Source: Planctomycetota bacterium
Lineage (GTDB): Bacteria; Planctomycetota; B15-G4; SIAN01
Assembly (NCBI GenBank): GCA_031409275.1
Contig: JANNXA010000009.1
Span: forward strand, 64,001 to 128,000
Length of the DNA stretch: 64,000 nucleotides
Direction: 5' to 3'
In this document: piece after piece, positions 1,467 to 40,121 of the stretch
How the letters are laid out: the number at the start of each line of letters is the position of its first letter
How positions within the stretch are numbered: the first letter of the stretch is position 1
Notes under the pieces: model-generated
Told to the model about the DNA's origin: nothing
Database searches by the model: none
Seen by the model: only the letters and a program-made list of their open reading frames with translations
Program-made: the position numbers and the translations under genes

Positions 1467-3995
1467 TCAGCATTGGGAGTAGCCGCAACCATGGCACTTC
1501 ACGCACCCTTCCTGGAAGGCGAGCGCGCCGATCTCGCAGCTCGGGCACTTGAGCTTGAACATCTCCTTCGGCTTGAGCGGCACCGGCGCCGCCGCCGGCG
1601 TCGCGCCGTGGCCGTTGCCGTTCGCGGGCTCGACGTCATCGACCTTGGTGGCGTCGACTTCACCGAGCAGAAGCCCGCGAATGCCGAACTTGAGCTTCGC
1701 CGCAAGGTACTTGCGCAGTGCATGCGCGAGCCCGTCGGCGAGTGACTTGATCCGCCCTTCCTTGGTCGGGACCGACAAGCTCGATCCGATGCCGTCGAGC
1801 TGGCTGACCGCGAGCAGGAAGTCGCCGTTGCAGCGCAGGAACAGCGACACGATGCGGCAGATCGCCTCGAGGTCGGAGTTGGCGAGATCGCCTCCCTTGC
1901 CGAGCTGAGCGAAGACTTCGCGCTCGATGCCGGTGCTCGGCTCGACGCTGATCTTGACGTGCATGTTGCCGAACGGCGTGAACTGGCGAACGCGCACGCA
2001 CGGCATGATCTCGGGCAGAGCGATCGGCCGCATCGGCCCGATCGGCGCGAGCACCGCCGGCAACTTCGCGTCGACCGAAACGGGCTTGGCGTCGGCGCCA
2101 GCCTTGGCCCCGCTCGTCTTGTCGCTCAGCGTCTTGCCGACCTCGTCCTTCAGCGCCATCGGCTGCATCGGTCGGCTGCCGTCGCGATAGACGGTGATGC
2201 CCTTGCACTTCGTCTCGTAGGCGAGCATGTACGCCGCCTCGACCGCCGACACATCGCAGTCGGACGGGAGGTTGATCGTCTTGCTGACGGCGGCGTCGGT
2301 GTTCTCCTGCCAGGCCGCCTGCATGCGCACGTGCCAGTCGGGCGCGATGTCGCGCGCCGTTCGGAAGACGTCGCGCACGTGCGGCGACAGCAGATCGCAC
2401 TCCTGCACGGAGCCGTGCGAAGAGGCGAAGTCGATCGCGGCAGCCGAGTCGTCATCGCTCTTCATCGAGTCCTTGAGCGCCTGCTCGAAGACCGGGTTGA
2501 CCTCGGAGAGCTTCTTGCCGTCCAGCACCTGGCGCGTGAACGCGAGCGAGAAGATCGGCTCGATCCCGCCCGAGCAGCCCGCGATGATCGAGATGGTCCC
2601 GGTCGGCGCGATGGTCACGTAGTGGGCGTTGCGCGCCTTGATCTTGCGCTTCACGTCCCAGACCGACCCCTTCCAGTTCTTGAAGCAGCCGCGCTGCTCG
2701 GCGAGCTCGGCACCGACTTCCCACGCGGCCTTCTGGATGAAGCTGCCGACGTCGCGAGCGAGCTGCAGCGCCTCCTCCGAGTCGTAACGGACGCCGAGCT
2801 GGAACAGCAGGTCGGCCCAGCCCATGACGCCGAGCCCGACCTTGCGGTTCGAACGGCACGCCTCGTCGATCTCCTTGGTCGGGTAGTTGTTCACCTCGAC
2901 CACGTCATCGAGGAAGCGGATGCACGTCCGCACGACGCCCTTCAGCTTGTCCCAGTCGATGCGCTCCTTCAGCGAGCCGCGCACGGTCGGCCGGTAGAAG
3001 CGTTCGAGGTTGATCGAGCCGAGGTTGCACGCCTCGTACGGGCCGAGCGGCTGCTCGCCGCACGGGTTGGTGGCGCGCATCTCGAAGACGTGCGGCGTCT
3101 GGTTGTGGCGATTGACTTCGTCGATGAAGATCAGCCCCGGCTCGCCCGTGGTCCAGGCGCGCGTGATGACGCGGTCCCAGAGCTGGCGCACCGTCATGAA
3201 ATCGCCCTGCTTCTCGGCGGGGATCTCTTCGTAGACGGCGCTGCCGGTGCTCTTGCGCAGCACTCCGGCCTTCTTGCTGTGCGGGTCGCGGACGACGTGC
3301 AGCGCGTTCGGGGAGTTCTTCAGTCGATCCATGAACTCGTCGGTCATCGAGACCGAGAGGTTGTAGTTGGTGACCTTGCTCAGGTCGCCCTTGATGTCGA
3401 CGAACGAGACGATGTCGGGGTGATCGACCCGCATCATTCCCATGTTCGCGCCACGCCGGAACGCACCCTGCTGGATCGCGTCCGTCACCGCCGAAAGCAT
3501 CTTCAGGAAGGAAAGCGGACCATCGGTGGTGCCGCCGGACGACTTGACGATCGCCCCCTTCGGACGCAGCTGCGACAGGTCGACGCCAGTGCCGCCGCCC
3601 GCGCGTTGGACCAGCGCGATCTGGCGCGCGGTCTCCATGATCTCGGGGATCGAGTCGTTCAACGGGAGGACGAAGCACGCGGAGAGCATTCCGAGCCGTC
3701 GTCCCGCGTTCATCAGGGTCGGCGAGTTCGGCATGAACTGGCGCTCGGTCATCGTGCGCAGGAAGGCGTCCTCGACCTCCTTGATCGCCTCGGCCGAGAC
3801 GCCCCACTTCGATTCGATCGCGGCGACGGCATGCGCCACTCGCCGGAACAACTGAGCGGGTGTCTCGACGACCTTGCCGTTGTCGTCGCGATTGAGGTAC
3901 CGGTTCTCGAGGACCGTGAACGCGTTCTTCGACAACTCCACCGAGTCCTGCCCTTTGCTCGCCGCCGTGCCGATCGCCACCCCAGGTTGAATCAC
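1467..3995 (-). CDS. nrdJ: Class II adenosylcobalamin-dependent ribonucleotide reductase with fused TSCPD domain and C-terminal Zn ribbon
   Basis: Motifs PNSPTLMNAG, SACFV, TNPCGEQPL, EACNLGSINL, IAPTGTIS and KGITVYRDGSR, with C-terminal CPSC...CHGCGYSQC. GTG start at 3995 follows a GGGGAGG RBS. Confidence 0.95.
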   Translation of the reverse strand: MIQPGVAIGTAASKGQDSVELSKNAFTVLENRYLNRDDNGKVVETPAQLFRRVAHAVAAIESKWGVSAEAIKEVEDAFLRTMTERQFMPNSPTLMNAGRRLGMLSACFVLPLNDSIPEIMETARQIALVQRAGGGTGVDLSQLRPKGAIVKSSGGTTDGPLSFLKMLSAVTDAIQQGAFRRGANMGMMRVDHPDIVSFVDIKGDLSKVTNYNLSVSMTDEFMDRLKNSPNALHVVRDPHSKKAGVLRKSTGSAVYEEIPAEKQGDFMTVRQLWDRVITRAWTTGEPGLIFIDEVNRHNQTPHVFEMRATNPCGEQPLGPYEACNLGSINLERFYRPTVRGSLKERIDWDKLKGVVRTCIRFLDDVVEVNNYPTKEIDEACRSNRKVGLGVMGWADLLFQLGVRYDSEEALQLARDVGSFIQKAAWEVGAELAEQRGCFKNWKGSVWDVKRKIKARNAHYVTIAPTGTISIIAGCSGGIEPIFSLAFTRQVLDGKKLSEVNPVFEQALKDSMKSDDDSAAAIDFASSHGSVQECDLLSPHVRDVFRTARDIAPDWHVRMQAAWQENTDAAVSKTINLPSDCDVSAVEAAYMLAYETKCKGITVYRDGSRPMQPMALKDEVGKTLSDKTSGAKAGADAKPVSVDAKLPAVLAPIGPMRPIALPEIMPCVRVRQFTPFGNMHVKISVEPSTGIEREVFAQLGKGGDLANSDLEAICRIVSLFLRCNGDFLLAVSQLDGIGSSLSVPTKEGRIKSLADGLAHALRKYLAAKLKFGIRGLLLGEVDATKVDDVEPANGNGHGATPAAAPVPLKPKEMFKLKCPSCEIGALAFQEGCVKCHGCGYSQC

Positions 3996-28923: not shown

Positions 28924-29241
28924 ATGAACTCGATCAGCTGTTCCGAGCTCGCCGCACGATGGGCGCGCGGCGAGCGGCCGGTGCTGCTCGACGTGCGCGA
29001 GCCCGAGGAGCACGCGATCTGCCAGTTGCCCGGCAGCGTGCTCGTCCCGATGAGCGAGCTGCCGATGAGGCTGCAGGAGCTCGACCCCGAGGTCGAGACG
29101 ATCGTCTACTGCCACCACGGCGTGCGCTCCGCCCATGTCATCGCCCACCTGATGGGCCACGGGTTCGAGCGCCTGGTCAACCTGCGCGGCGGCATCGACG
29201 CCTGGTCGCGGGAAGTCGATCCAGCGGTCCGCCGCTACTGA
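28924..29241 (+). CDS. Single-domain rhodanese
   Basis: Motifs LLDVREPEE, YCHHGVRS and NLRGGIDAW. Confidence 0.9.
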   Translation: MNSISCSELAARWARGERPVLLDVREPEEHAICQLPGSVLVPMSELPMRLQELDPEVETIVYCHHGVRSAHVIAHLMGHGFERLVNLRGGIDAWSREVDPAVRRY

Positions 29242-29399
29242 AACGCCGACGCGGCGCGCCCGTCCGATCGTCGATCGTTCGCATCGGTCGGCCATGCGCC
29301 GCTACCAAAATTGCCATCGAGATCTACCATCTCGCGCCTCGAAGTTTCCGATTCGGCGCCGCGGCTGTCATGCGGGGTGCCACTAATCAAGGAGGTCGC

Positions 29400-30701
29400 A
29401 TGAACGGTCTGCGTGGATGCACTCTTCCGATGGCTGCACTCGGAACCATGTTCGTGGCGGCGATGCCCGCCTCGGCGCAGGAGACGATCGAGTCGCTGAC
29501 GAAGCGCGTTGCCGAACTCGAAGCAAAGCTCCCGAAGGACTCGAGCGGCGACGCCGTGAAGTGGAGCGACCTGTCGGCGCTCGGCTCGCGCTTCAAGCTC
29601 TACGGCTACCTGCGCGTCGACTCGATGTGGGACGACTCGCGACCGAACAACACGCAGCTGCCGGTCTTCATCCGGTCGGAAGACCCGAGCGCGCCGTCGG
29701 GCTTCAAGGCGGCGGACAACTCCTCCGACTTCAACCTGCACCCGAAGCTGACGCGCGTCGGCCTCGACTTCACCGGGCCGAAGGTGAACGGCATTGGTGA
29801 CCCGACGCTGACCGGCAAGCTCGAGACCGACTTCTACAACGCGACCGCCACGGAATCGCGCGAAGCGCTGCGCATCCGCGTCGCGTGGCTGCAGCTCAAG
29901 TGGAACAACTTCAGCCTTTACGGCGGCCAGATGTGGGACGTGATCTCGCCGCTGATGCCGGTGGTCAACCCCGACATGGTGTCGTGGGGCGCGGGCAACC
30001 TGGCGGACCGCCGACCGCAGATCCGCGGCGAATGGGTCAACCCGATGGGCGACAGCAAGCTCACCGTGACCGGCATGGTGGGCGCGACCGGCGCGATCGA
30101 CGCTGCCGACCTCGACGCCAACACCTACCGCGATGGCGACCAGTCGGCGCAGCCGACCCTGCAGGCGCGCGTCGGCTGGAAGACGCCGGTCTTCGACACG
30201 AAGAGCAACTTCGAGATCGGCGCCTGGGCCCACCACGCCAACGAAGAGACCGACAAGCCGATCGGCACCAACCGCAACTTCTCGAGCTCGGCGTACGGCG
30301 TCGACTTCCAGCTCCCGATCTACAAGGATCGCGTCTGGGTGAAGGGCGAGCTGTGGCACGGCCGCAACCTCGATGACGTCCGCGGCGCGATCCTGCAGGG
30401 CATCAACAGCGCCGGCGACGAGATCCGCTCGCAAGGCGGCTGGACCGAGGTCGGCTGGAAGACCGGCGATCACCTGTCGCTGCACGGCGGCTGGTCGTTC
30501 GATGACCCGAACAACGACGACTTGATCATCAGCTCGAGCAACGCGCCGCGCTCGCGCAACACGATCGCCTACGCCGCCGCGATGTTCGACTTCAAGCCGG
30601 TCTTCTTCGGCCTGCACTACCTGAAGTGGACCACCGGCTACGAAGGCTTCGACAAGGGCGACGACAACCGCCTCCAGGCCTTCATCCAGTACTCGTTCTG
30701 A
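29400..30701 (+). CDS. Outer-membrane porin, DcaP-like
   Basis: AAGGAGG RBS, signal peptide, short coiled coil, KLYGYLRVD, amphipathic strands and a terminal Phe (IQYSF). Confidence 0.75.
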   Translation: MNGLRGCTLPMAALGTMFVAAMPASAQETIESLTKRVAELEAKLPKDSSGDAVKWSDLSALGSRFKLYGYLRVDSMWDDSRPNNTQLPVFIRSEDPSAPSGFKAADNSSDFNLHPKLTRVGLDFTGPKVNGIGDPTLTGKLETDFYNATATESREALRIRVAWLQLKWNNFSLYGGQMWDVISPLMPVVNPDMVSWGAGNLADRRPQIRGEWVNPMGDSKLTVTGMVGATGAIDAADLDANTYRDGDQSAQPTLQARVGWKTPVFDTKSNFEIGAWAHHANEETDKPIGTNRNFSSSAYGVDFQLPIYKDRVWVKGELWHGRNLDDVRGAILQGINSAGDEIRSQGGWTEVGWKTGDHLSLHGGWSFDDPNNDDLIISSSNAPRSRNTIAYAAAMFDFKPVFFGLHYLKWTTGYEGFDKGDDNRLQAFIQYSF

Positions 30702-30717
30702 TCCCACGGATCCCTGG

Positions 30718-30806
30718 CCGGCGGGCGAACCTGTCGCCCGCCGGTGCTTCTCCTCGATTCCGTCGTGCGGGTGCCGGCGCTGACGCAACCAGCGCCCGCA
30801 CGACGG
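30718..30806. terminator. Two tandem GC hairpins after the porin gene
   Basis: CCGGCGGGCGA-acctg-TCGCCCGCCGG and CCGTCGTGCGGG...CCCGCACGACGG. Confidence 0.45.
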
Positions 30807-30864
30807 TCTTCTCCCCTCCCCGGCCGGCGCGATCGCGCCGCCTTCCCGCCCACCGGAGATCTCC

Positions 30865-32007
30865 ATGAAGGTGTTCCGATTCCCCTTGCTGGCGCTCGCG
30901 CTCGCAGGCGCCGCATGCGCGACCGATCTCGGCAGCAGCCACGACAGCTCGATGACGATGGCCGCCGCGAAACCCGGCAAGAGCGCCAGGTTCGACGGCA
31001 AGAACGAGTTCAAGCTGACCGTTCCGGAAGGCGCCAAGTCGATCCGCATCTGGTTCGCGATGCCGCAGGACGACGACTGGACCACGATCGCGAGCCAAAC
31101 GAACAGCTTCTCGCCGGGCCTCTCCGGCCGCATGGTGATCGATGACCACGGCAATCGGATGCTCTACGCCGAGGCCAGCGACGCTGCGGCCGGCACCGAG
31201 CTCTCGATCTCCGAAGCGTTCACTCTCGAGCGCCAGGAGATCGTCGGAAACGTCGACGCCAGCAAGGCGAAGCCGCTGTCGGCCGCTGAAGCGGTGAAGT
31301 TCGCGCGCGAGCTCGGCGAGAACGCCTACATCAAGATCACCCCCGAGATCCGCGCGATCGCGGCCTCGGTCGTCGGCGACGAGAAGAACCCGGTGATCGC
31401 GGCGCGCAAGCTCTACGACTGGACGCTCGACAACATCGAGTACTGGGTCAAGACGCCGGCCACGCGCAAGGCGTCGGCGACCGGCAGCTCGGAGCACTGC
31501 CTCACCACGAAGACCGGCAACTGCACCGACTTCCACTCGCTGTGGGCCGCGCTCGCGCGCGCCTCGGGCATCCCGACCCGCATCGTCTACGGATCGATCT
31601 TCAAGCCGGCGCTCGACGGCCAAGACAAGGACGGCAGCTACCACTGCTGGCCCGAGTTCTACGCGTCGGGTCTGGGCTGGGTGAGCCACGACGTCGCGGT
31701 CGCCGACATCTTCCGCGGCACCTATGAACTCAACGCCGACAACGAGGAGAAGGTTCGCCTCACCATCGCCACGCCGTACACCGGCGCCGACGAGAAGATG
31801 GTGAACTACTACTTCGGCAACATCGACGAGCGCCGCGTGGTCTGGTCGAGCGGGCGCGACCTGACGCTCGATCCGGCGGCAGCCGCCGGCAAGGTCAACG
31901 CGATGGCGAAGGCATACGTCGAGATCGACGGCAAGCCGTATGGCGAGAAGTCGGCCGATGGCAAGGTCCAGTGGACCCGCAAGTTCAGCTACCGTGAAGT
32001 GAAGTAG
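30865..32007 (+). CDS. Transglutaminase-like (Cys-His-Asp) lipoprotein
   Basis: Lipobox LAGAAC, GNCTDFHS, YHCWPEFY and WVSHD. Confidence 0.85.
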   Translation: MKVFRFPLLALALAGAACATDLGSSHDSSMTMAAAKPGKSARFDGKNEFKLTVPEGAKSIRIWFAMPQDDDWTTIASQTNSFSPGLSGRMVIDDHGNRMLYAEASDAAAGTELSISEAFTLERQEIVGNVDASKAKPLSAAEAVKFARELGENAYIKITPEIRAIAASVVGDEKNPVIAARKLYDWTLDNIEYWVKTPATRKASATGSSEHCLTTKTGNCTDFHSLWAALARASGIPTRIVYGSIFKPALDGQDKDGSYHCWPEFYASGLGWVSHDVAVADIFRGTYELNADNEEKVRLTIATPYTGADEKMVNYYFGNIDERRVVWSSGRDLTLDPAAAAGKVNAMAKAYVEIDGKPYGEKSADGKVQWTRKFSYREVK

Positions 32008-32110
32008 CGCGTCGCGCGCAGGCACGCAGCGCCATGATCGCCGCGGGTCGGCGCAGCGAGGCGGAACTCCGCCGCGCGCGCCGGCCCGCTCTCCATCCCG
32101 AGCTGCTCCC

Positions 32111-32722
32111 ATCTCCCATCGCCCCGCCGCTCCCGATCCAGATCCCGACTCCGCCGCGGAGACGCCACTCGTCGTCGCCGCGGTCGAGCGCGGTGCCGGC
32201 AGCCGCTGCCCGGGTTGCGGCGCCGCTGTCTGCGGCCACGAGGTCGTGCTCTCGTGGGTGCTCGGCTTCAAGGACGCGCCGCGTTGCGCGGATTGCCTGG
32301 CGAAGGGACTCGACCGCGTCCGCAACGAACTGATCGCGAGCGTGAAGCAGCACGTCGACCACCGCGAGTGCTGGAGCGCCGGCTGGCGACACGCCGGCAC
32401 GATCGAGCAGCTGCGCGCCGCGCCCGCCTGCAGGGTGGCCTCCGTCGTCGCATCCAGCGCCCCTGCCGCGGCCGCGCGCTCGAATCCTCCCGTCGTCGCC
32501 AGCGACCACGCCGCCTGCTATGACGCCGGCGACCTCGGTTGCGGCGACCTCGTCCTCGAACTGCGAATGCGATTGCGGGAGCTCGCTCCCGGATCGCTGC
32601 TCGAAGTGATCGCGCGCGATCCGGGCGCGCCGGCCGATCTGCCTGCCTGGTGCGGGATGACCGGCCACACGCTCGTCTCCGCGAACCATCCCCGCTACCT
32701 CATCCGCCGACGCAAGGAGTGA
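32111..32722 (+). CDS. Cys-rich Zn-finger-like domain fused to a TusA-family sulfur carrier
   Basis: CPGC...CGH...CADC, then YDAGDLGCGDL...DLPAWC. The frame is open upstream of GTG 32246 with no canonical start, so ATC at 32111 is a guess. Confidence 0.7.
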   Translation: MSHRPAAPDPDPDSAAETPLVVAAVERGAGSRCPGCGAAVCGHEVVLSWVLGFKDAPRCADCLAKGLDRVRNELIASVKQHVDHRECWSAGWRHAGTIEQLRAAPACRVASVVASSAPAAAARSNPPVVASDHAACYDAGDLGCGDLVLELRMRLRELAPGSLLEVIARDPGAPADLPAWCGMTGHTLVSANHPRYLIRRRKE

Positions 32723-32724
32723 AC

Positions 32725-33087
32725 ATGGCTGGCAAGTTCTGCGTGACGTTGACCTGCTCGAAGGACAACACCGACAAGGCGACGGTCGCGTTCGTCGTCG
32801 CCAACGCCTCCGTCGCGTCCGAGAAGGAGACGATGGTCTTCCTCTCGATCGAGGGCGTGCGCCTGTCGCAGAAGGGCTTCGCCGACACGATCCACGAGGA
32901 AGGTTTCGCGCCGCTGAAGGAGCTGATCGCCAACTTCGTGAAAGCGGGCGGACTGATCTGGGTCTGCTCGCCCTGCTTCAAGAAGCGCAAGCTCGACGAG
33001 GCCGCGCTGATCCCTGGCGCGACGATCGTCGGCGGCGCCAAGCTCGTCGAGTTCCTGAGCGCCGGCTCGCCCTCGATCAGCTTCTGA
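32725..33087 (+). CDS. DsrE family protein
   Basis: AAGGAG RBS, VFLSIEGV, WVCSPC and GATIVGG. Confidence 0.88.
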   Translation: MAGKFCVTLTCSKDNTDKATVAFVVANASVASEKETMVFLSIEGVRLSQKGFADTIHEEGFAPLKELIANFVKAGGLIWVCSPCFKKRKLDEAALIPGATIVGGAKLVEFLSAGSPSISF

Positions 33088-33088
33088 C

Positions 33089-33874
33089 GTGACCGACGGC
33101 AGCGACGACCGCGCCCCCGACGCGATCTGCGAAGGGGGCGAACTCGACTGCGGCAGCGGCCTCCTGCTGATCATCCGCGAGGCGATGGCGCCGCTGCCGG
33201 CCGGTGGCCTCCTCGAGGTGCGCAGCCTCGAATCGAGCGTGAAGGAGGACCTGCCGGCCTGGTGCCGTCTGGTGGGCCACGAGCTGCGCTCGGTGGTCGC
33301 CGGCGAGGGCCGCTCCACGCGCTTTCGCATCGTCAAGCGCAGCGCATCGGCGGCCGACGCTCCCGCCGTGGCGGCGCACGAGGCGCCGCTGGCCGCCGAC
33401 CTCGAACAGGCGCGCCGCTTCACGTGGAGCGCGCGCGTGAAGTGGACCGCCGGAATGCAGGCGACCAGTTACGTGCGCAACCACGCCGTCGCCATCGGGC
33501 AGCCGGCGAGCTTCGACACCGCCGATCCAGCGCCGAGCGCCATCGAGCTGCTGCTCTCGGCACTCGGCGGTTGCCTCGCCGTCGGCCTCCAGTGGCGCGC
33601 CTCGCGCCAGGGCATCGCCGTGCGCCAGCTCGAGGTGTCGCTGCGCGCGCGCGCCGACGACATCCTCGTCTTCCTCGGAATCGACGACACGAGCGAAGCG
33701 AGCCGCGGCGCCGGCCACCCCGGCCTCGCGGTCATCGACGGCTCGATCTACGTCGATTGCGACGCGGACGACGCGACGCTCCAGCAGCTCTTCACCGACA
33801 CGGTTGCTCGCTCGCCGGTCGCGCAGTCGCTGCTGCGCGGCGTCCCGCTCCGCATCAGCGCGAAGCTCGCGTGA
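33089..33874 (+). CDS. TusA-OsmC fusion protein
   Basis: N-terminal GELDCGSGLL...EDLPAWC and C-terminal PSAIELLLSALGGC...RSPV. Confidence 0.85.
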   Translation: MTDGSDDRAPDAICEGGELDCGSGLLLIIREAMAPLPAGGLLEVRSLESSVKEDLPAWCRLVGHELRSVVAGEGRSTRFRIVKRSASAADAPAVAAHEAPLAADLEQARRFTWSARVKWTAGMQATSYVRNHAVAIGQPASFDTADPAPSAIELLLSALGGCLAVGLQWRASRQGIAVRQLEVSLRARADDILVFLGIDDTSEASRGAGHPGLAVIDGSIYVDCDADDATLQQLFTDTVARSPVAQSLLRGVPLRISAKLA

Positions 33875-33915
33875 CGCGGAACGGGCTCAGTCGCTGACGC
33901 CAAGCAGCTCGGTGA

Positions 33916-35054
33916 CTACCGATCGTGCGGAGCGTCGGGCAGCTCGACGAGGAAGAGGTCCCACGTTCCGTTGGTGTCGTGCGGGACCAACGTCGACTGG
34001 TAGCTGAGGAAGACGGCGCGCAGCCCGTCTTCGCTCAAGGCGCTCGACCACACGAACGGATCGGCGACCGCCAAGGTCTTGGCATCGAGCTTCGTGTCGT
34101 AGCGATCGAGCCCGCTTTGCGCGCCGACGCTGCCGGAGTAGGTGAGGTAGCGACCGTCGGCCGAGACGGCCTGCGGCGCCGCGGCGTCGAGCGGCAGGAT
34201 CGTCGCCTCGAGCGTCGCGAGGTCCACGCGATAGGTCGCCGGCAACCACGTCCGCCAGAATCCGAGACCGCCGGAGTAGCCGCCGTACCAATAGGTCGAG
34301 TACCACTTGCCGTAGTTGGGGTAGGGCTGCCGCACGCGCTCCGCCGAGAGGAAAACCGCCGAAGCATCGGCGGCGATCACCGGCTCGGAGGGATAGAGGT
34401 AGATGAGGCCGCCCGAATCGCGGAAGTCCGCTCGCGACGACTGCAGCGGCCACGCGATCTCGGCCACGGCCACCGGCGATGCTCCGCCGATGGCGACTGC
34501 CGCGTCCGCGGAAAGCCCCGTCGTCGTCATGAAGAAACCGGTGGAGCCGACGATCGCGGCCGTCGCGATCTCATCGGCGTAGGTGACGTCGGAGTCGGTG
34601 AAGACGACGTACTTGCCGTCGGCTGAAACGAGGGGGCGTTCCGGTGAGCTCCAGTACGAGTAGGTGCCGTTCGCCGTGACCAGCGCCGTCGTCCCCGCCA
34701 CGCGATCGCGCAGGTAGACGTCGGCGTCGTTGTCGTTGTCGATCGGCCCGAGGTCGTTCGCCTCGCTGACGAAGGCGACGTAGCGACCATCGCGCGAGAT
34801 CGAGGGCGAGGCGCTCGCGCCGTTGGAGGCGCCACCGCCGGCGGCGAGCGAGATGCGCTGCGTCTTCCGTGGCGCGCGTTGCCGGAGATCGCGAACTCCT
34901 GATAGGCGCCCTTGGCGAGCTGCGAGCCGTTCGAGCGCACGCTCACCCGTTCGAACTGCTGCGCCGAGGCGAACGGTGCCGCCATGCCGACGCGGAGCAG
35001 GAGAAGTGGCGCCGGACGGACCGGTCCGGGCAGGACGAGGCGCGACACTGGCAC
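33916..35054 (-). pseudogene. TolB/PD40-repeat beta-propeller protein with internal deletion and frameshift
   Basis: Signal peptide and ERVSVRSNG...AISGNARH in one frame, joined at about 34870 to KTQRISL...SISRDGRYVAFVS...DVYLRD in another. Confidence 0.65.
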
Positions 35055-35114
35055 CAGCGGATGCCAGCTCCTAGCGTCACGCGCCGCTCGCATCTCGCCA
35101 GCCTGGAGTCGTCG

Positions 35115-36254
35115 ATGCCGTCGCTTCCGCTCTTCCCGGTGACCAGCGTCGGCAGCTGGCCGAGACCCGACTGGCTGCTCGATGCGATGAAGCGCCAGCG
35201 CCCGAACCTGCGCGAGCTGCAGGACCAGGCCACGCTGCTGGCGATCAAGCAGCAGGAGGACGCCGGCGTCGATCTCGTCACCGATGGCGAGCAGCGTCGC
35301 GACAACTTCTATTCGTTCCTGTGCGACAAGCTCGACGGCCTGCGCCTGATGACGATGGCGGACCTCCTCGACCACGTCGAAGACAAGGCCGGCTTCGAAG
35401 CGCTGCTGCAGACCCTCGATGTGCCCGCCTTCGCGATCCGCAATCCGACCGTGGTCGGCAAGCTGCGCGTGAAGTCGCCGCTGGCCTGCGACGACGCTCG
35501 ATTCCTCCGAGCCCACACGAAGCGCGCGCTCAAGGTGACGTTGCCAGGCCCCTACCTGCTGTCGCGCTCGATGTGGGTGAAGCGCCTTTCCGAGGCGGCC
35601 TACCCGACGCGCGCCGAGCTGATCGACGACCTCGTCAAGATCCTGCGCGCCGAGCTGCAGGAGCTGGTGCGCATGGGCGTCGAGATGGTGCAGTTCGACG
35701 AACCCGCGCTCACCGAGCTCGCCTTCGCCGGCAAGTCGTCGACGCGCACGTTCATGTGCGCGGCGCTCGCCGCGCAGGCCAGTCCCGAGAGCGAGCTCGA
35801 GCTGGCGGTCGAGCTGATCAATCGAGTCGTCGAAGGCGTCACCGGCACCATCACCGCGGTGCACGTCTGCCGCGGGAACTGGAGTCGCAAGGAGGAGGTG
35901 CTGCTGGCCGGCAGCTACGACCCGCTGATGCCAACCTTCAAGAAGATGAAGGTGAAGCAGTTCGTCCTCGAGTACGCGACCGAGCGCGCTGGAACCCTCG
36001 ACGCGCTGCGCGAGCTGCCTCCCGGCGCGCAGGTGGGGCTTGGCACCGTCAATCCGCGCACGAGCGAGATCGAACCGGTCACCACCATCGTCGAGCGCGC
36101 GCGTCGCGTCGCGACGCTGCTGTCGCCCGATCGGGTCTTCCTGAATCCTGACTGCGGCTTCGGGACCTTTGCCGAGCGGCCGGTGAACAGCGCCGCCGCT
36201 GCCGAACAGAAGCTCGCCGCGCTGGCGCAGGCCGCGGCCGTGCTGCGCCGTTGA
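35115..36254 (+). CDS. Cobalamin-independent methionine synthase II family (core MetE C-terminal domain only)
   Basis: Motifs VGSWPRP, TDGEQRR and QFDEP, with Zn ligands in HVCRGN, LEY and NPDCGF. The N-terminal MetE half is absent. Confidence 0.88.
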   Translation: MPSLPLFPVTSVGSWPRPDWLLDAMKRQRPNLRELQDQATLLAIKQQEDAGVDLVTDGEQRRDNFYSFLCDKLDGLRLMTMADLLDHVEDKAGFEALLQTLDVPAFAIRNPTVVGKLRVKSPLACDDARFLRAHTKRALKVTLPGPYLLSRSMWVKRLSEAAYPTRAELIDDLVKILRAELQELVRMGVEMVQFDEPALTELAFAGKSSTRTFMCAALAAQASPESELELAVELINRVVEGVTGTITAVHVCRGNWSRKEEVLLAGSYDPLMPTFKKMKVKQFVLEYATERAGTLDALRELPPGAQVGLGTVNPRTSEIEPVTTIVERARRVATLLSPDRVFLNPDCGFGTFAERPVNSAAAAEQKLAALAQAAAVLRR

Positions 36255-39236: not shown

Positions 39237-40121
39237 ATGGACTTCCGCGATCGCTGGCATGCCCCGCATCCGCTCCTGCTCGACGCCGCGCTCGGCAGCG
39301 AACTGACGCGCCGCGGGGTCGCCACGCCGCTGCCGTTGTGGAGCGCCGCCGCCCTTCGCGACGCTCCCGCGGCGGTCGCCGCGATCCACGCCGACCACGT
39401 CGCGGCGGGCGCCGAGGTGGTCACGACGGCGACCTTCCGAACGACCCGCCGCGCGCTGGCGAAGGCGGGAATTCAGGAGACGGCGAGCGAAGCGCGGCGG
39501 CTCGTCACCGTTGCCGTCGGCCTCGCTCGAGCGGCTCGCCCCGAGTTCGTCGCCGGCTCGATCGCGCCGCTCGAGGACTGCTACGAGCCGACGCTCGTTC
39601 CCGACGACGCGACCTGCGCACGCGAGCATGGCTGGCTCGCCCGCGACCTCGCCGACGCGGGCGTCGACCTCTTGCTGATCGAGACGATGAACAGCGTTCG
39701 CGAGGCCGTCGCCGCGACGCGCGCGGCACGTGCGACCGGGTTGCCGGTCGTCGTCGGTTTGGTCTGTCGCAGCGATGGAAGGCTCGTCAGCGGCGAGCGA
39801 GTCACCGTCGCGGCGCGCTCGCTGCTGGGCGAGCACGTCGATGGACTCGCCATCAACTGCACGCCGGTCCCCACCTTGCACGAACCGCTCGCGGAGCTGA
39901 TCGCGGCGGTCGCCGGCCACATGCCGTGCGGCGCGTGGGGCAATGTCGGCCACACCGACGAGATCGACGGGTGGACATGCACCGACGACTGCACCCCCGC
40001 TCAGTACGTCGCCGCCGCGCGCCGCTGGCTCGACCTCGGCACGCACCTCATCGGTGGCTGCTGCGGCACCACCTCCGCTCACCTCGTGGCGCTGCGCGAC
40101 GAGATCGCGGCACGCGCCTGA
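39237..40121 (+). CDS. Homocysteine S-methyltransferase family protein
   Basis: Motifs LLDAALGSEL, VAGSIAPL, LIETM, AINC and IGGCCG. Confidence 0.9.
   Translation: MDFRDRWHAPHPLLLDAALGSELTRRGVATPLPLWSAAALRDAPAAVAAIHADHVAAGAEVVTTATFRTTRRALAKAGIQETASEARRLVTVAVGLARAARPEFVAGSIAPLEDCYEPTLVPDDATCAREHGWLARDLADAGVDLLLIETMNSVREAVAATRAARATGLPVVVGLVCRSDGRLVSGERVTVAARSLLGEHVDGLAINCTPVPTLHEPLAELIAAVAGHMPCGAWGNVGHTDEIDGWTCTDDCTPAQYVAAARRWLDLGTHLIGGCCGTTSAHLVALRDEIAARA

What the first reader, a model, noticed from the sequence alone, without database searches (positions are those of the whole stretch)
28924..36254. Sulfur-relay cluster I cannot assign: ZnF-TusA, DsrE, TusA-OsmC and core MetE-like enzyme
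Seen: three genes 1-2 bp apart encode two non-canonical TusA domains (GxLxCG instead of CPxP, plus DLPAWC), a CxxC DsrE and a one-Cys OsmC (second Cys to Ser). A Zn-ligand-complete half-MetE with an extra FMC follows. Rhodanese, porin and Cys-transglutaminase lipoprotein genes lie upstream on the same strand. Known: TusA/DsrE/rhodanese carry persulfides, and core MetE folds activate thiols for alkyl transfer (MesA-D, epoxyalkane:CoM transferase). Inference: a folate-independent S-alkyl transfer or organosulfur/selenium scavenging pathway on protein carriers. This is my best candidate for an undescribed system.
Basis: partly seen in the sequence, partly recalled or inferred. Interest (0 to 1): 0.8.

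Follow-up and report, generated by a model that had tools for sequence, protein, structure and literature searches.

The report
Methionine-synthase-like selenium salvage operon
A widespread but unstudied set of genes pairs small cysteine proteins of known carrier families with a half-size methionine-synthase-like enzyme whose extra cysteine is a likely selenocysteine in some relatives, and it likely recovers selenium from methylated selenium compounds without needing vitamin B12.

Summary
The cluster is real. The core TusA–DsrE–TusA(/OsmC)–half-MetE recurs in 54 of 69 loci across several phyla. Natural TusA–MetE fusions exist. In the window's phylum this DsrE occurs in 46 of 53 MetE carriers and 0 of 107 non-carriers. 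The enzyme keeps all MetE zinc and homocysteine residues but fails the MesA–D and EaCoMT tests. Its extra FMC cysteine is Cys or TGA in 182 of 182 loci: 7 in-frame TGA, all with SECIS-like hairpins, in three separate branches. All 56 carriers among 351 phylum genomes have SelA (non-carriers 208 of 295), and several loci lie inside selenium islands. Against: a sister architecture without TusA/DsrE occurs in SelA-free Paenibacillales and SelD-free archaea. Best reading (0.42, inferred): corrinoid-free salvage of methyl-selenium, with the methyl going to homocysteine and selenium relayed to SelD, analogous to Sdm/Mlp clusters. I found no description in print. The scan noted this operon on four other windows, including the selenocysteine; one proposed selenium salvage. 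Interest 0.78.

The parts
35115..36254 (+). Core enzyme: half-MetE (379 aa) with homocysteine pocket S14/E59/D195, Zn ligands H250/C252/E286/C347 and an extra FMC Cys215
   Evidence: Pfam Meth_synt_2 E 2.6e-24; residues invariant where aligned in 157 family loci; AF2 pTM 0.92; the same 379-aa protein is in the public collection
35757..35759 (+). Codon of Cys215 (TGC here). In relatives it is TGA followed by a SECIS-like hairpin, on a predicted mobile loop
   Evidence: 182 loci: TGC 144, TGT 31, TGA 7; loop 205-223 has the lowest pLDDT, 54-68
33089..33874 (+). TusA2-OsmC. The TusA domain (C21 of GELDCG, C59 of DLPAWC) is the one fused to the enzyme in other lineages; the OsmC domain has one non-invariant Cys and is likely not a peroxidase
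   Evidence: Pfam TusA E 1.3e-5 (below cut-off), OsmC E 3e-11; C21 140/140, C59 130/140, OsmC C162 62/77 with Asp in 13; fusions
32725..33087 (+). DsrE-family protein with CSPC, specific to this operon
   Evidence: Pfam DsrE E 7e-13; C81 133/133, C84 132/133 with one TGA in L058; 46/53 carriers and 0/107 non-carriers
32111..32722 (+). TusA1 (C131 of GDLGCG, C168 of DLPAWC in the numbering) with an optional N-terminal Cys-rich domain; start uncertain (ATC 32111 assumed; GTG 32246 would cut the first CxxC)
   Evidence: Pfam TusA E 6e-10; C131 119/119 best hits; Cys-rich domain in 20 of 81 loci, five Cys nearly invariant in 35 loci
30865..32007 (+). Transglutaminase-like Cys/His protein with a lipoprotein-like signal, a frequent accessory member
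   Evidence: Pfam Transglut_core E 7e-24; in 36 of 54 TusA/DsrE loci and 8 of 80 fusion-type loci, many of them short; C220 50/50, H260 49/49
29400..30701 (+). DcaP-like outer-membrane porin, accessory
   Evidence: Pfam DcaP E 4e-4, below cut-off; 11 of 81 loci
28924..29241 (+). Single-domain rhodanese, 25 bp behind an aldehyde dehydrogenase gene; probably not part of the core
   Evidence: Pfam Rhodanese E 6e-17; 3 of 81 loci, but directly before the enzyme in the close relative L004
33916..35021 (-). Intervening PD40/TolB-like gene, frameshifted near 34870-34890; a lineage-specific insertion, not part of the system
   Evidence: Pfam PD40; 66% identical to the intact 395-aa gene in L002, in two frames

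Best explanation
This is a conserved operon around a half-size MetE-fold enzyme with an extra Cys (likely Sec in some relatives), and it likely salvages selenium from methyl-selenium compounds without a corrinoid. Shown by sequence and genome comparison: the gene set, TusA-MetE fusions, intact Zn and homocysteine residues, the Cys/TGA exchange at residue 215, and the link to SelA and selenium islands. Inferred steps: (1) a CH3-Se group (from methylselenol, dimethyldiselenide, or breakdown of methylselenocysteine or selenomethionine) is captured on Cys/Sec215 as R-S-Se-CH3, possibly delivered by TusA2; (2) Zn-bound homocysteine takes the methyl group and gives methionine; (3) the selenium left on residue 215 passes to TusA2 Cys21 and through the TusA1/DsrE pair (the same two domain types as the selenium protein YedF) to SelD; (4) porin and exported transglutaminase-like protein would help bring in or release organoselenium. 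The OsmC domain is likely structural or substrate-binding.
For: Codon 215 is Cys or TGA in 182 of 182 loci. The 7 TGA cases lie in three separate places of the tree; all 7 pass a relaxed SECIS filter, against 36 of 159 distinct Cys genes; SelA was found in all seven genomes and tRNA-Sec in the two tested. Database proteins of one cluster stop exactly at this residue. SelA: 56 of 56 carriers vs 208 of 295 non-carriers in 351 phylum genomes, and 0 of 87 SelA-negative genomes carry the enzyme (Fisher 3.4e-8, kin not independent); 46 of 50 locus genomes. Neighbours: selA, selB and tRNA-Sec in L069, L071 and L081, with selD in L069 and L071; selA in Paracoccus L082; selenium LysR over cut-off in L081, L110 and L144, and YedE in L081; a Sec-lyase-like desulfurase next to both Sec-type clostridial genes and a YedF DsrE domain over cut-off next to one. 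TusA2-MetE fusions; their AF2 model has pTM 0.85 although the MetE part is about 75-79% of the chain, which suggests a confident docking (my inference). No hit to a B12-binding domain in any fetched locus. Precedent for methyl-selenide salvage with recycling of the methyl to methionine: type 1 mlp/Sdm clusters (PMC10418091, passages).
Against: No activity is shown. In a 221-genome sample of the Paenibacillus order only 1 of 7 carriers has SelA; all 7 have SelD, but so do 112 of 221. Those six are the ACAD+SBP architecture without TusA/DsrE. Two archaeal carriers and two TusA/DsrE-type MAGs (G036, G038) have neither SelA nor SelD over cut-off. SelA is common in this phylum (264 of 351), so a shared lifestyle could drive part of the link. 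Sec at a residue shows that it is reactive, not that the substrate contains selenium. The window's own operon has no sel gene nearby (selA and selD on C40, selB on C29). Some loci lie beside sulfur and methionine genes (L110, L063, L070, L076). From general chemistry, a thiolate attacks S or Se of R-S-Se-CH3 more readily than carbon, so step 2 needs enzyme control.
Confidence: 0.42

Rival explanations
1. The same chemistry on sulfur: the enzyme salvages methanethiol or another S-alkyl compound, and the TusA/DsrE proteins carry the resulting persulfide. This is closest to the first reader's idea.
For: TusA, DsrE and rhodanese are established sulfur carriers (general knowledge). L110 sits in a sulfur assimilation cluster, and MetY- or MetB-like genes lie downstream in L063, L070 and L076. 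The sister architecture (Rv1679-like acyl-CoA dehydrogenase + Rv1680-like binding protein) occurs without Sec machinery. Type 1 mlp clusters also have a non-selenium clade.
Against: A sulfur function does not explain 0 of 87 SelA-negative genomes carrying it, nor its place in selenium islands. No SAM riboswitch or T-box was found at the gathering threshold in 8 Bacillota loci.
Confidence: 0.2
2. A fifth folate-independent methionine synthase for biosynthesis, with TusA/DsrE acting as MesX-like methyl suppliers.
For: All seven MetE catalytic and substrate residues named in PMC7857596 are kept; the best solved relative is MesD 3RPD; 23 of 50 locus genomes have no single MetH match over cut-off (many are incomplete or may have split MetH). 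MesD also co-occurs with MetH in most genomes.
Against: The own genome has a full MetH, as do 27 of 50 locus genomes. No S-box in Bacillota. No methyl source is encoded. It does not explain Cys/Sec215 or the SelA link.
Confidence: 0.13
3. Reverse direction: selenomethionine (or methylselenocysteine) binds in the amino-acid pocket, Zn stabilises the selenol leaving group, and Cys/Sec215 takes the methyl group; PLP lyases then free the selenide.
For: The pocket is of the type that holds selenomethionine in 3RPD. Sec-lyase-like or Cys/Met lyase genes are neighbours in L167, L168, L070, L076 and L082. The 2026 review calls prokaryotic SeMet-to-Sec conversion uncertain.
Against: A neutral selenoether is a poor methyl donor (general chemistry); a methylated Cys needs a further acceptor that is not evident; the role of TusA/DsrE is less direct.
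Confidence: 0.13
4. Metalloid or heavy-metal handling (arsenic, mercury, tellurium, excess selenium), or coenzyme M-dependent alkyl transfer.
For: ArsM-like methyltransferase near L032 (a cluster also holding L045 and L077 proteins) and a CUAEP radical SAM gene upstream in L032 and L033; coenzyme M biosynthesis genes near L023 and L031; many Cys residues.
Against: These neighbours are sporadic. EaCoMT has Asn and Lys where this family keeps S14 and E59. Detoxification would not need SelA.
Confidence: 0.07

Closest known systems
Type 1 mlp gene clusters / SdmABC (Kountz and Balskus, PMC10418091, abstract and passages read; Niess and Klein 2004 only as cited there)
   Same: Zn His-Cys-Cys methyltransferases of the URO-D/MetE superfamily; strong link to Sec machinery (87% there); proposed to strip methyl-selenium and recycle the methyl to methionine; a non-selenium offshoot exists in both.
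   Different: Those use MtaA-like enzymes, a corrinoid protein and a reductive activase, in anaerobes only. Here the enzyme has a MetE amino-acid pocket and an extra Cys/Sec, the partners are TusA/DsrE, no B12-binding domain was found in the loci, and carriers include aerobic genera such as Paracoccus and Paenibacillus (lifestyle recalled).
Core methionine synthases MesA-D, closest MesD/MesX (Price et al. 2021, PMC7857596, parts 1-4 of 7 read; PDB 3RPD)
   Same: Single catalytic barrel without folate domain; the same Zn ligands and homocysteine residues; reliance on a partner.
   Different: 27% identity to MesD, no MesX, no CoFeSP, extra FMC loop absent from MesD, different partners, link to selenium.
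Epoxyalkane:coenzyme M transferase (EtnE, taken beside the alkene monooxygenase genes of Mycolicibacterium chubuense)
   Same: MetE-like barrel that activates a thiol on Zn for a reaction other than methionine synthesis.
   Different: 22% identity; lacks the S14/E59 amino-acid pocket and FMC; I saw no alkene monooxygenase gene in the loci I listed.
YedF (SirA/TusA + DsrE) with YedE, DUF3343 and LysR_Se (Lin et al. 2015, PMC5322559, passages read)
   Same: TusA and DsrE domains together, tied to SelD; a YedF DsrE domain is the neighbour of a Sec-type enzyme gene in L167.
   Different: Here TusA and DsrE are separate proteins with GxCG instead of CPxP, did not match the YedF model at E 0.01, and are tied to an enzyme.

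Membership tests
MetE-core (Meth_synt_2) Zn enzymes | Barrel fold with His-x-Cys, Glu and Cys zinc ligands | tested here: met
   Pfam over cut-off; ligands invariant where aligned; fold search of the fused model hits MetE and MesD structures first
MetE-core (Meth_synt_2) Zn enzymes | Homocysteine-binding Ser, Glu, Asp (E. coli S433/E484/D599) | tested here: met
   S14, E59, D195 align to MetE and MesD
Full or split MetE | N-terminal folate-binding domain, fused or as a separate gene | tested here: not met
   379 aa; TIGR01371 65.7 vs cut-off 930, PRK04326 174.7 vs 406; only one Meth_synt_2 match in the genome; no such gene among the recurring neighbours. A separate Meth_synt_1 gene elsewhere in the genome was not searched.
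MesD/MesX | About 55% or more identity to MesD and an adjacent mesX | tested here: not met
   27% identity; PRK09121 126.7 vs 392; MesX tblastn empty in the own genome while finding its source locus; the PF08908 search had no ringing control and is not used alone
MesA | About 40% or more identity to methanogen MesA; found only in methanogens | tested here: not met
   PRK00957 87.2 vs cut-off 258 (that this model stands for MesA is recalled); carriers are non-methanogens; no direct alignment to METE_METTM was made
MesB / MesC | Host encodes the Wood-Ljungdahl corrinoid iron-sulfur protein | tested here: not met
   CdhD absent in 5 of 5 genomes tested, including the own (92.9% complete); controls rang
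MesB / MesC | Sequence score to DET0516 or Q8TUL3 above the published thresholds | not tested
   Reference sequences were not fetched and are not in the tree
Epoxyalkane:CoM transferase | CoM-type pocket and linkage to alkene monooxygenase | tested here: not met
   22% identity; EtnE has N and K at positions 14 and 59; CoM biosynthesis genes near only L023 and L031
Type 1 mlp / Sdm cluster | Corrinoid protein and reductive activase in the cluster | tested here: not met
   No hit of the MetH B12-binding domain in any fetched locus at E 1e-4; the activase was not searched separately
Type 1 mlp / Sdm cluster | Co-occurrence with Sec machinery | tested here: met
   56 of 56 in the phylum sample, 46 of 50 locus genomes; fails for the TusA-less architecture in the Paenibacillus order
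Type 1 mlp / Sdm cluster | Methyl transfer to or from selenide | not testable with these tools
   Needs an assay
Bacterial selenoprotein (relatives only) | In-frame TGA aligned to a conserved Cys, bSECIS-like hairpin, Sec machinery in the genome | tested here: met
   7 genes; hairpin 7 of 7 vs 36 of 159, with a hairpin energy limit of -2 instead of the published -7.5 kcal/mol; SelA, tRNA-Sec in two. The window's own gene has TGC and no hairpin.
Canonical TusA | CPxP motif at the catalytic Cys | tested here: not met
   CGDL and CGSG instead; PRK00299 37.9 and 17 vs cut-off 78; a beta-alpha-beta-alpha-beta-beta order is predicted for the fused domain
OsmC/Ohr peroxidase | Two conserved catalytic Cys | tested here: not met
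   Second position Ser; first Cys replaced by Asp in 13 of 77
YedF (TIGR03527) | SirA and DsrE domains in one chain, CPxP and CGxC | tested here: not met
   Separate genes; no TIGR03527 match at E 0.01

The most novel reading that the evidence does not exclude
A corrinoid-free pathway in which a MetE-fold (seleno)enzyme moves the methyl group of methyl-selenium directly onto homocysteine and hands the selenium to dedicated TusA/DsrE carriers for SelD. It would be the first MetE-fold selenoprotein family and a route by which aerobic and facultative bacteria reuse methylated selenium.
Probability: 0.35. Interest if true: 0.9.

Novelty: new variant of a known kind. Interest (0 to 1): 0.78.

Why it matters
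The 2026 review of prokaryotic selenoproteins (PMC13188914) says that the in vivo selenium donor system of SelD is unresolved and that it is uncertain whether prokaryotes convert selenomethionine to Sec; its catalogue of 119 families has no MetE-like member. Known methyl-selenium salvage needs corrinoids and anoxia. This operon is in about one in six genomes of the window's phylum (56 of 351) and in Acidobacteriota, Bacillota, Chloroflexota, NC10 and others. It gives a small, soluble four-protein candidate with a named reactive residue and cultured hosts, so both questions become testable. Even if the substrate is sulfur, it is an undescribed MetE-fold chemistry served by protein carriers.

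Tried and rejected
Model coordinates could not be read, so the distance from Cys215 to Zn was not measured. The OsmC query was out of frame; its count (25) is dropped and replaced. The 'selB' hit in L160 looks like IF-2 and is not counted. The stop in L106 is not at residue 215 and is not counted as Sec. The single DsrE CxxTGA in L058 (1 of 133) may be Sec or an error. No TGA aligned to a Cys of TusA, OsmC or the transglutaminase in the first 81 loci. Rfam found nothing in the window. No RNA holder was listed. The first tree run did not finish; FastTree was used, without MesA/B/C, with long reference branches, so only the monophyly of the FMC family (SH-like 97) and the spread of Sec forms are taken from it. 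The idea that all carriers need Sec machinery was rejected. The coenzyme M reading was rejected as a general explanation. Literature: no paper holds methionine synthase + DsrE + TusA + OsmC; the listings show no description of this operon; the review text has no 'MetE' or 'methionine synthase' and the first two of three parts of its section 7, which hold the table, list none; deep-Sep (PMC12013277, term search of the main text) has none. Haft and Tolstoy 2025 is not held, and no supplements were read, so a listing there cannot be excluded; NCBIfam June 2026 has no model over cut-off for the enzyme.

Full report
Anatomy. The region holds, on the plus strand, a rhodanese, a DcaP-like porin, a transglutaminase-like protein with a lipoprotein-like signal, a Cys-rich domain fused to TusA (TusA1), DsrE, TusA2-OsmC and a 379-aa half-MetE. 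TusA1, DsrE and TusA2-OsmC are 2 and 1 bp apart. The start of the Cys-rich domain is unclear. The closest named relatives are Planctomycetota MAGs. The genome (92.9% complete) has one Meth_synt_2 match, a full MetH, and selA, selB, selD and tRNA-Sec on other contigs.

Conservation. A scan of GTDB genomes found 548 relatives of the enzyme and returned the best 80, from Planctomycetota, Acidobacteriota, NC10, Poribacteria, Chloroflexota, Armatimonadota, Actinomycetota, Bacillota, Alphaproteobacteria and archaea. Of 69 loci with at least 2.4 kb upstream, 54 have DsrE plus TusA(-OsmC) (architecture A), 8 have an Rv1679-like acyl-CoA dehydrogenase plus an Rv1680-like binding protein, mostly with an OsmC domain (architecture B; both below the NCBIfam cut-offs), and 7 have other neighbours. 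The transglutaminase is in 36 of the 54. Of all 81 loci, the Cys-rich domain is in 20, the porin in 11 and the rhodanese in 3. A third form fuses the TusA2 domain to the enzyme (six of thirteen long hits scanned); of 80 metagenome loci found with such a fusion, 66 hold the DsrE and none an OsmC. The link is reciprocal: in the window's phylum this DsrE is in 46 of 53 enzyme carriers tested and in 0 of 107 non-carriers tested (of 295). The core is therefore TusA1, DsrE, TusA2 and the enzyme.

The enzyme. S14, E59 and D195 (the homocysteine residues of Price et al.) and H250, C252, E286 and C347 are invariant where aligned in 157 loci (two search patterns contained Zn ligands, none contained FMC). 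FMC is in 157 of 157. Among more distant representatives outside the clade it is absent, and a few near ones differ (P0002, P0036). The family is one clade (SH-like 97), apart from MesD (27% identity), EtnE (22%), the MetE C-terminal half (22%) and two generic half-MetEs; MesA, B and C were not in the tree. All NCBIfam methionine synthase models score below cut-off. MesX is absent from the own genome and CdhD from 5 of 5 genomes. AlphaFold gives pTM 0.92 for the window's enzyme, with the FMC loop (205-223) as the least confident stretch. A natural fusion folds with pTM 0.85, more than its MetE part alone would allow, which I read as a confident placement of TusA2.

Selenocysteine. One representative had Trp at the FMC Cys, and its cluster mates end just before it. 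In 301 genomes of the Peptostreptococcus order, 4 carry the enzyme and 2 have one in-frame TGA; in 351 genomes of the window's phylum, 56 carry it and 5 have one. All seven TGAs sit at residue 215. Over 182 loci the codon is TGC 144, TGT 31, TGA 7 and nothing else; a relaxed version of the bSECIS model is met by 7 of 7 TGA genes and by 36 of 159 distinct Cys genes. The Sec forms fall in three places of the tree, so the count of independent cases is about three. By the usual logic of Cys/Sec pairs this marks residue 215 as a reactive site. The window's own gene has Cys.

Link to selenium use. All 56 carriers in the phylum sample have SelA, against 208 of 295 non-carriers (kin are not independent). 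Of 50 locus genomes tested (50 of 80), 46 have SelA; this set partly overlaps the phylum sample in kinship. In Bacillota the operon lies beside selA, selB and tRNA-Sec in L069, L071 and L081, with selD in L069 and L071 and yedE and the selenium LysR in L081. In Paracoccus versutus the fusion gene is followed by selA and trxB. L144 and L110 have the selenium LysR, and L144 a partial selB. Both Sec-type clostridial genes lie next to a DUF3343-like gene (label from recall) and a Sec-lyase-like desulfurase, and L167 also next to a YedF DsrE domain. Against this: in 221 genomes of the Paenibacillus order only 1 of 7 carriers has SelA (3 of 221 overall), although all 7 have SelD (112 of 221); the six are architecture B. 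Two archaea (architecture B) and two architecture A MAGs have neither SelA nor SelD over cut-off. Some loci sit by sulfur and methionine genes, and two by coenzyme M genes. So the selenium link is strong for the TusA/DsrE form found in this window and weak for the sister form.

Link to methionine synthesis. MetH is over cut-off in the own genome and in 27 of 50 locus genomes. Eight Bacillota loci show no SAM riboswitch or T-box, which from general knowledge is unusual for methionine genes in that group; the one T-box found, in L035, precedes a separate ABC operon.

How it most likely works. Shown: an enzyme with an intact homocysteine and Zn site, one extra reactive Cys or Sec, a TusA partner that is sometimes fused, a dedicated DsrE, no B12-binding domain nearby, and a selenium-linked distribution. 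Inferred: a CH3-Se group is held on residue 215; Zn-homocysteine takes the methyl to form methionine; the selenium moves through TusA2 and the TusA1/DsrE pair to SelD. I put this at 0.42, the sulfur version at 0.20, the reverse selenomethionine demethylation at 0.13, a biosynthetic methionine synthase at 0.13, and metalloid or coenzyme M chemistry at 0.07. The two selenium-salvage readings together come to 0.55.

Comparison with what is known. It works most like the type 1 mlp/Sdm clusters, which are tied to Sec machinery, methylate selenide in vitro, and are proposed to recycle methyl-selenide into methionine (PMC10418091, abstract and passages; PMC11097638, passages), but it is not a member: no corrinoid protein. 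In sequence it is nearest to MesD, but fails that test too. TusA plus DsrE recalls YedF (PMC5322559, passages). The 2026 catalogue of 119 prokaryotic selenoprotein families has no MetE-like entry (PMC13188914, sections 4 and 5 and two of three parts of section 7). My eight literature searches found no description of the operon; Haft and Tolstoy 2025 could not be read and no supplements were seen.

Earlier notes. I reached the Sec and SelA results before opening the scan's notes. Three notes on other genomes report the same cassette with Sec in relatives, and a fourth proposes selenium uptake and salvage for a fusion-type locus. They agree with this reading but are not independent support.

Verdict. 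It is a new variant of MetE-core chemistry with a probable new selenoprotein family. Interest 0.78.

Noticed in passing
window 39237-40121 (+): A stand-alone homocysteine S-methyltransferase-domain gene 3 kb downstream of the half-MetE (27% to the first domain of MetH). It recurred only in the two closest relatives, L002 and L003, so it is probably not part of the system.
   Followed up: partly
L027, L035, L068, L073-L075, L078, L080, L169, L176, L186-L191: Architecture B joins the FMC enzyme to homologs of Rv1679 (FadE16) and Rv1680 (binding-protein-like). The NCBIfam model of the radical SAM protein Rv1681 also weakly matches the window's TusA1 at its N-terminus (E 5e-4), hinting at a larger family of ACAD + SBP cassettes with interchangeable terminal enzymes. 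L171 has both architectures side by side.
   Followed up: partly
L058 2136-2495: DsrE with TGA at the second Cys of CxxC (1 of 133): a possible CxxU selenoprotein or a sequence error.
   Followed up: partly
L023 6066-7811; L031 9409-17144: Coenzyme M biosynthesis genes (XcbA over cut-off in L023, a ComA-like gene, lyase-like genes) in Acidobacteriota, close to the FMC enzyme, an OsmC-like gene, a tandem rhodanese and a cbb3-like oxidase set.
   Followed up: no
L103, L111, L116, L123, L137, L140, L156: A PhnCDE-like ABC transporter lies directly upstream of the TusA-DsrE-fusion operon; its binding protein scores below the cut-offs of both the PhnD and the putative selenate binding protein models.
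   Followed up: partly
G579:C15, G565:C66, G504:C288: A second, more distant DsrE copy (51-54% identity) lies within about 6 kb of the operon in three genomes of one family.
   Followed up: no
L004 7553-9107: In this close relative the rhodanese is followed directly by the half-MetE, with no porin, transglutaminase, TusA, DsrE or OsmC gene within 8 kb.
   Followed up: no
window 32009-32245: The frame of the Cys-rich domain is open and partly conserved in L002, but in the window it has no standard start codon; an ATC start or another unusual initiation is possible.
   Followed up: partly
P0043: A distant half-MetE that carries an intein with a homing endonuclease domain.
   Followed up: no
window 1467-3980 (-): A large ORF that looks like a class II ribonucleotide reductase (judged by eye from its N-terminus, not scanned).
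   Followed up: no
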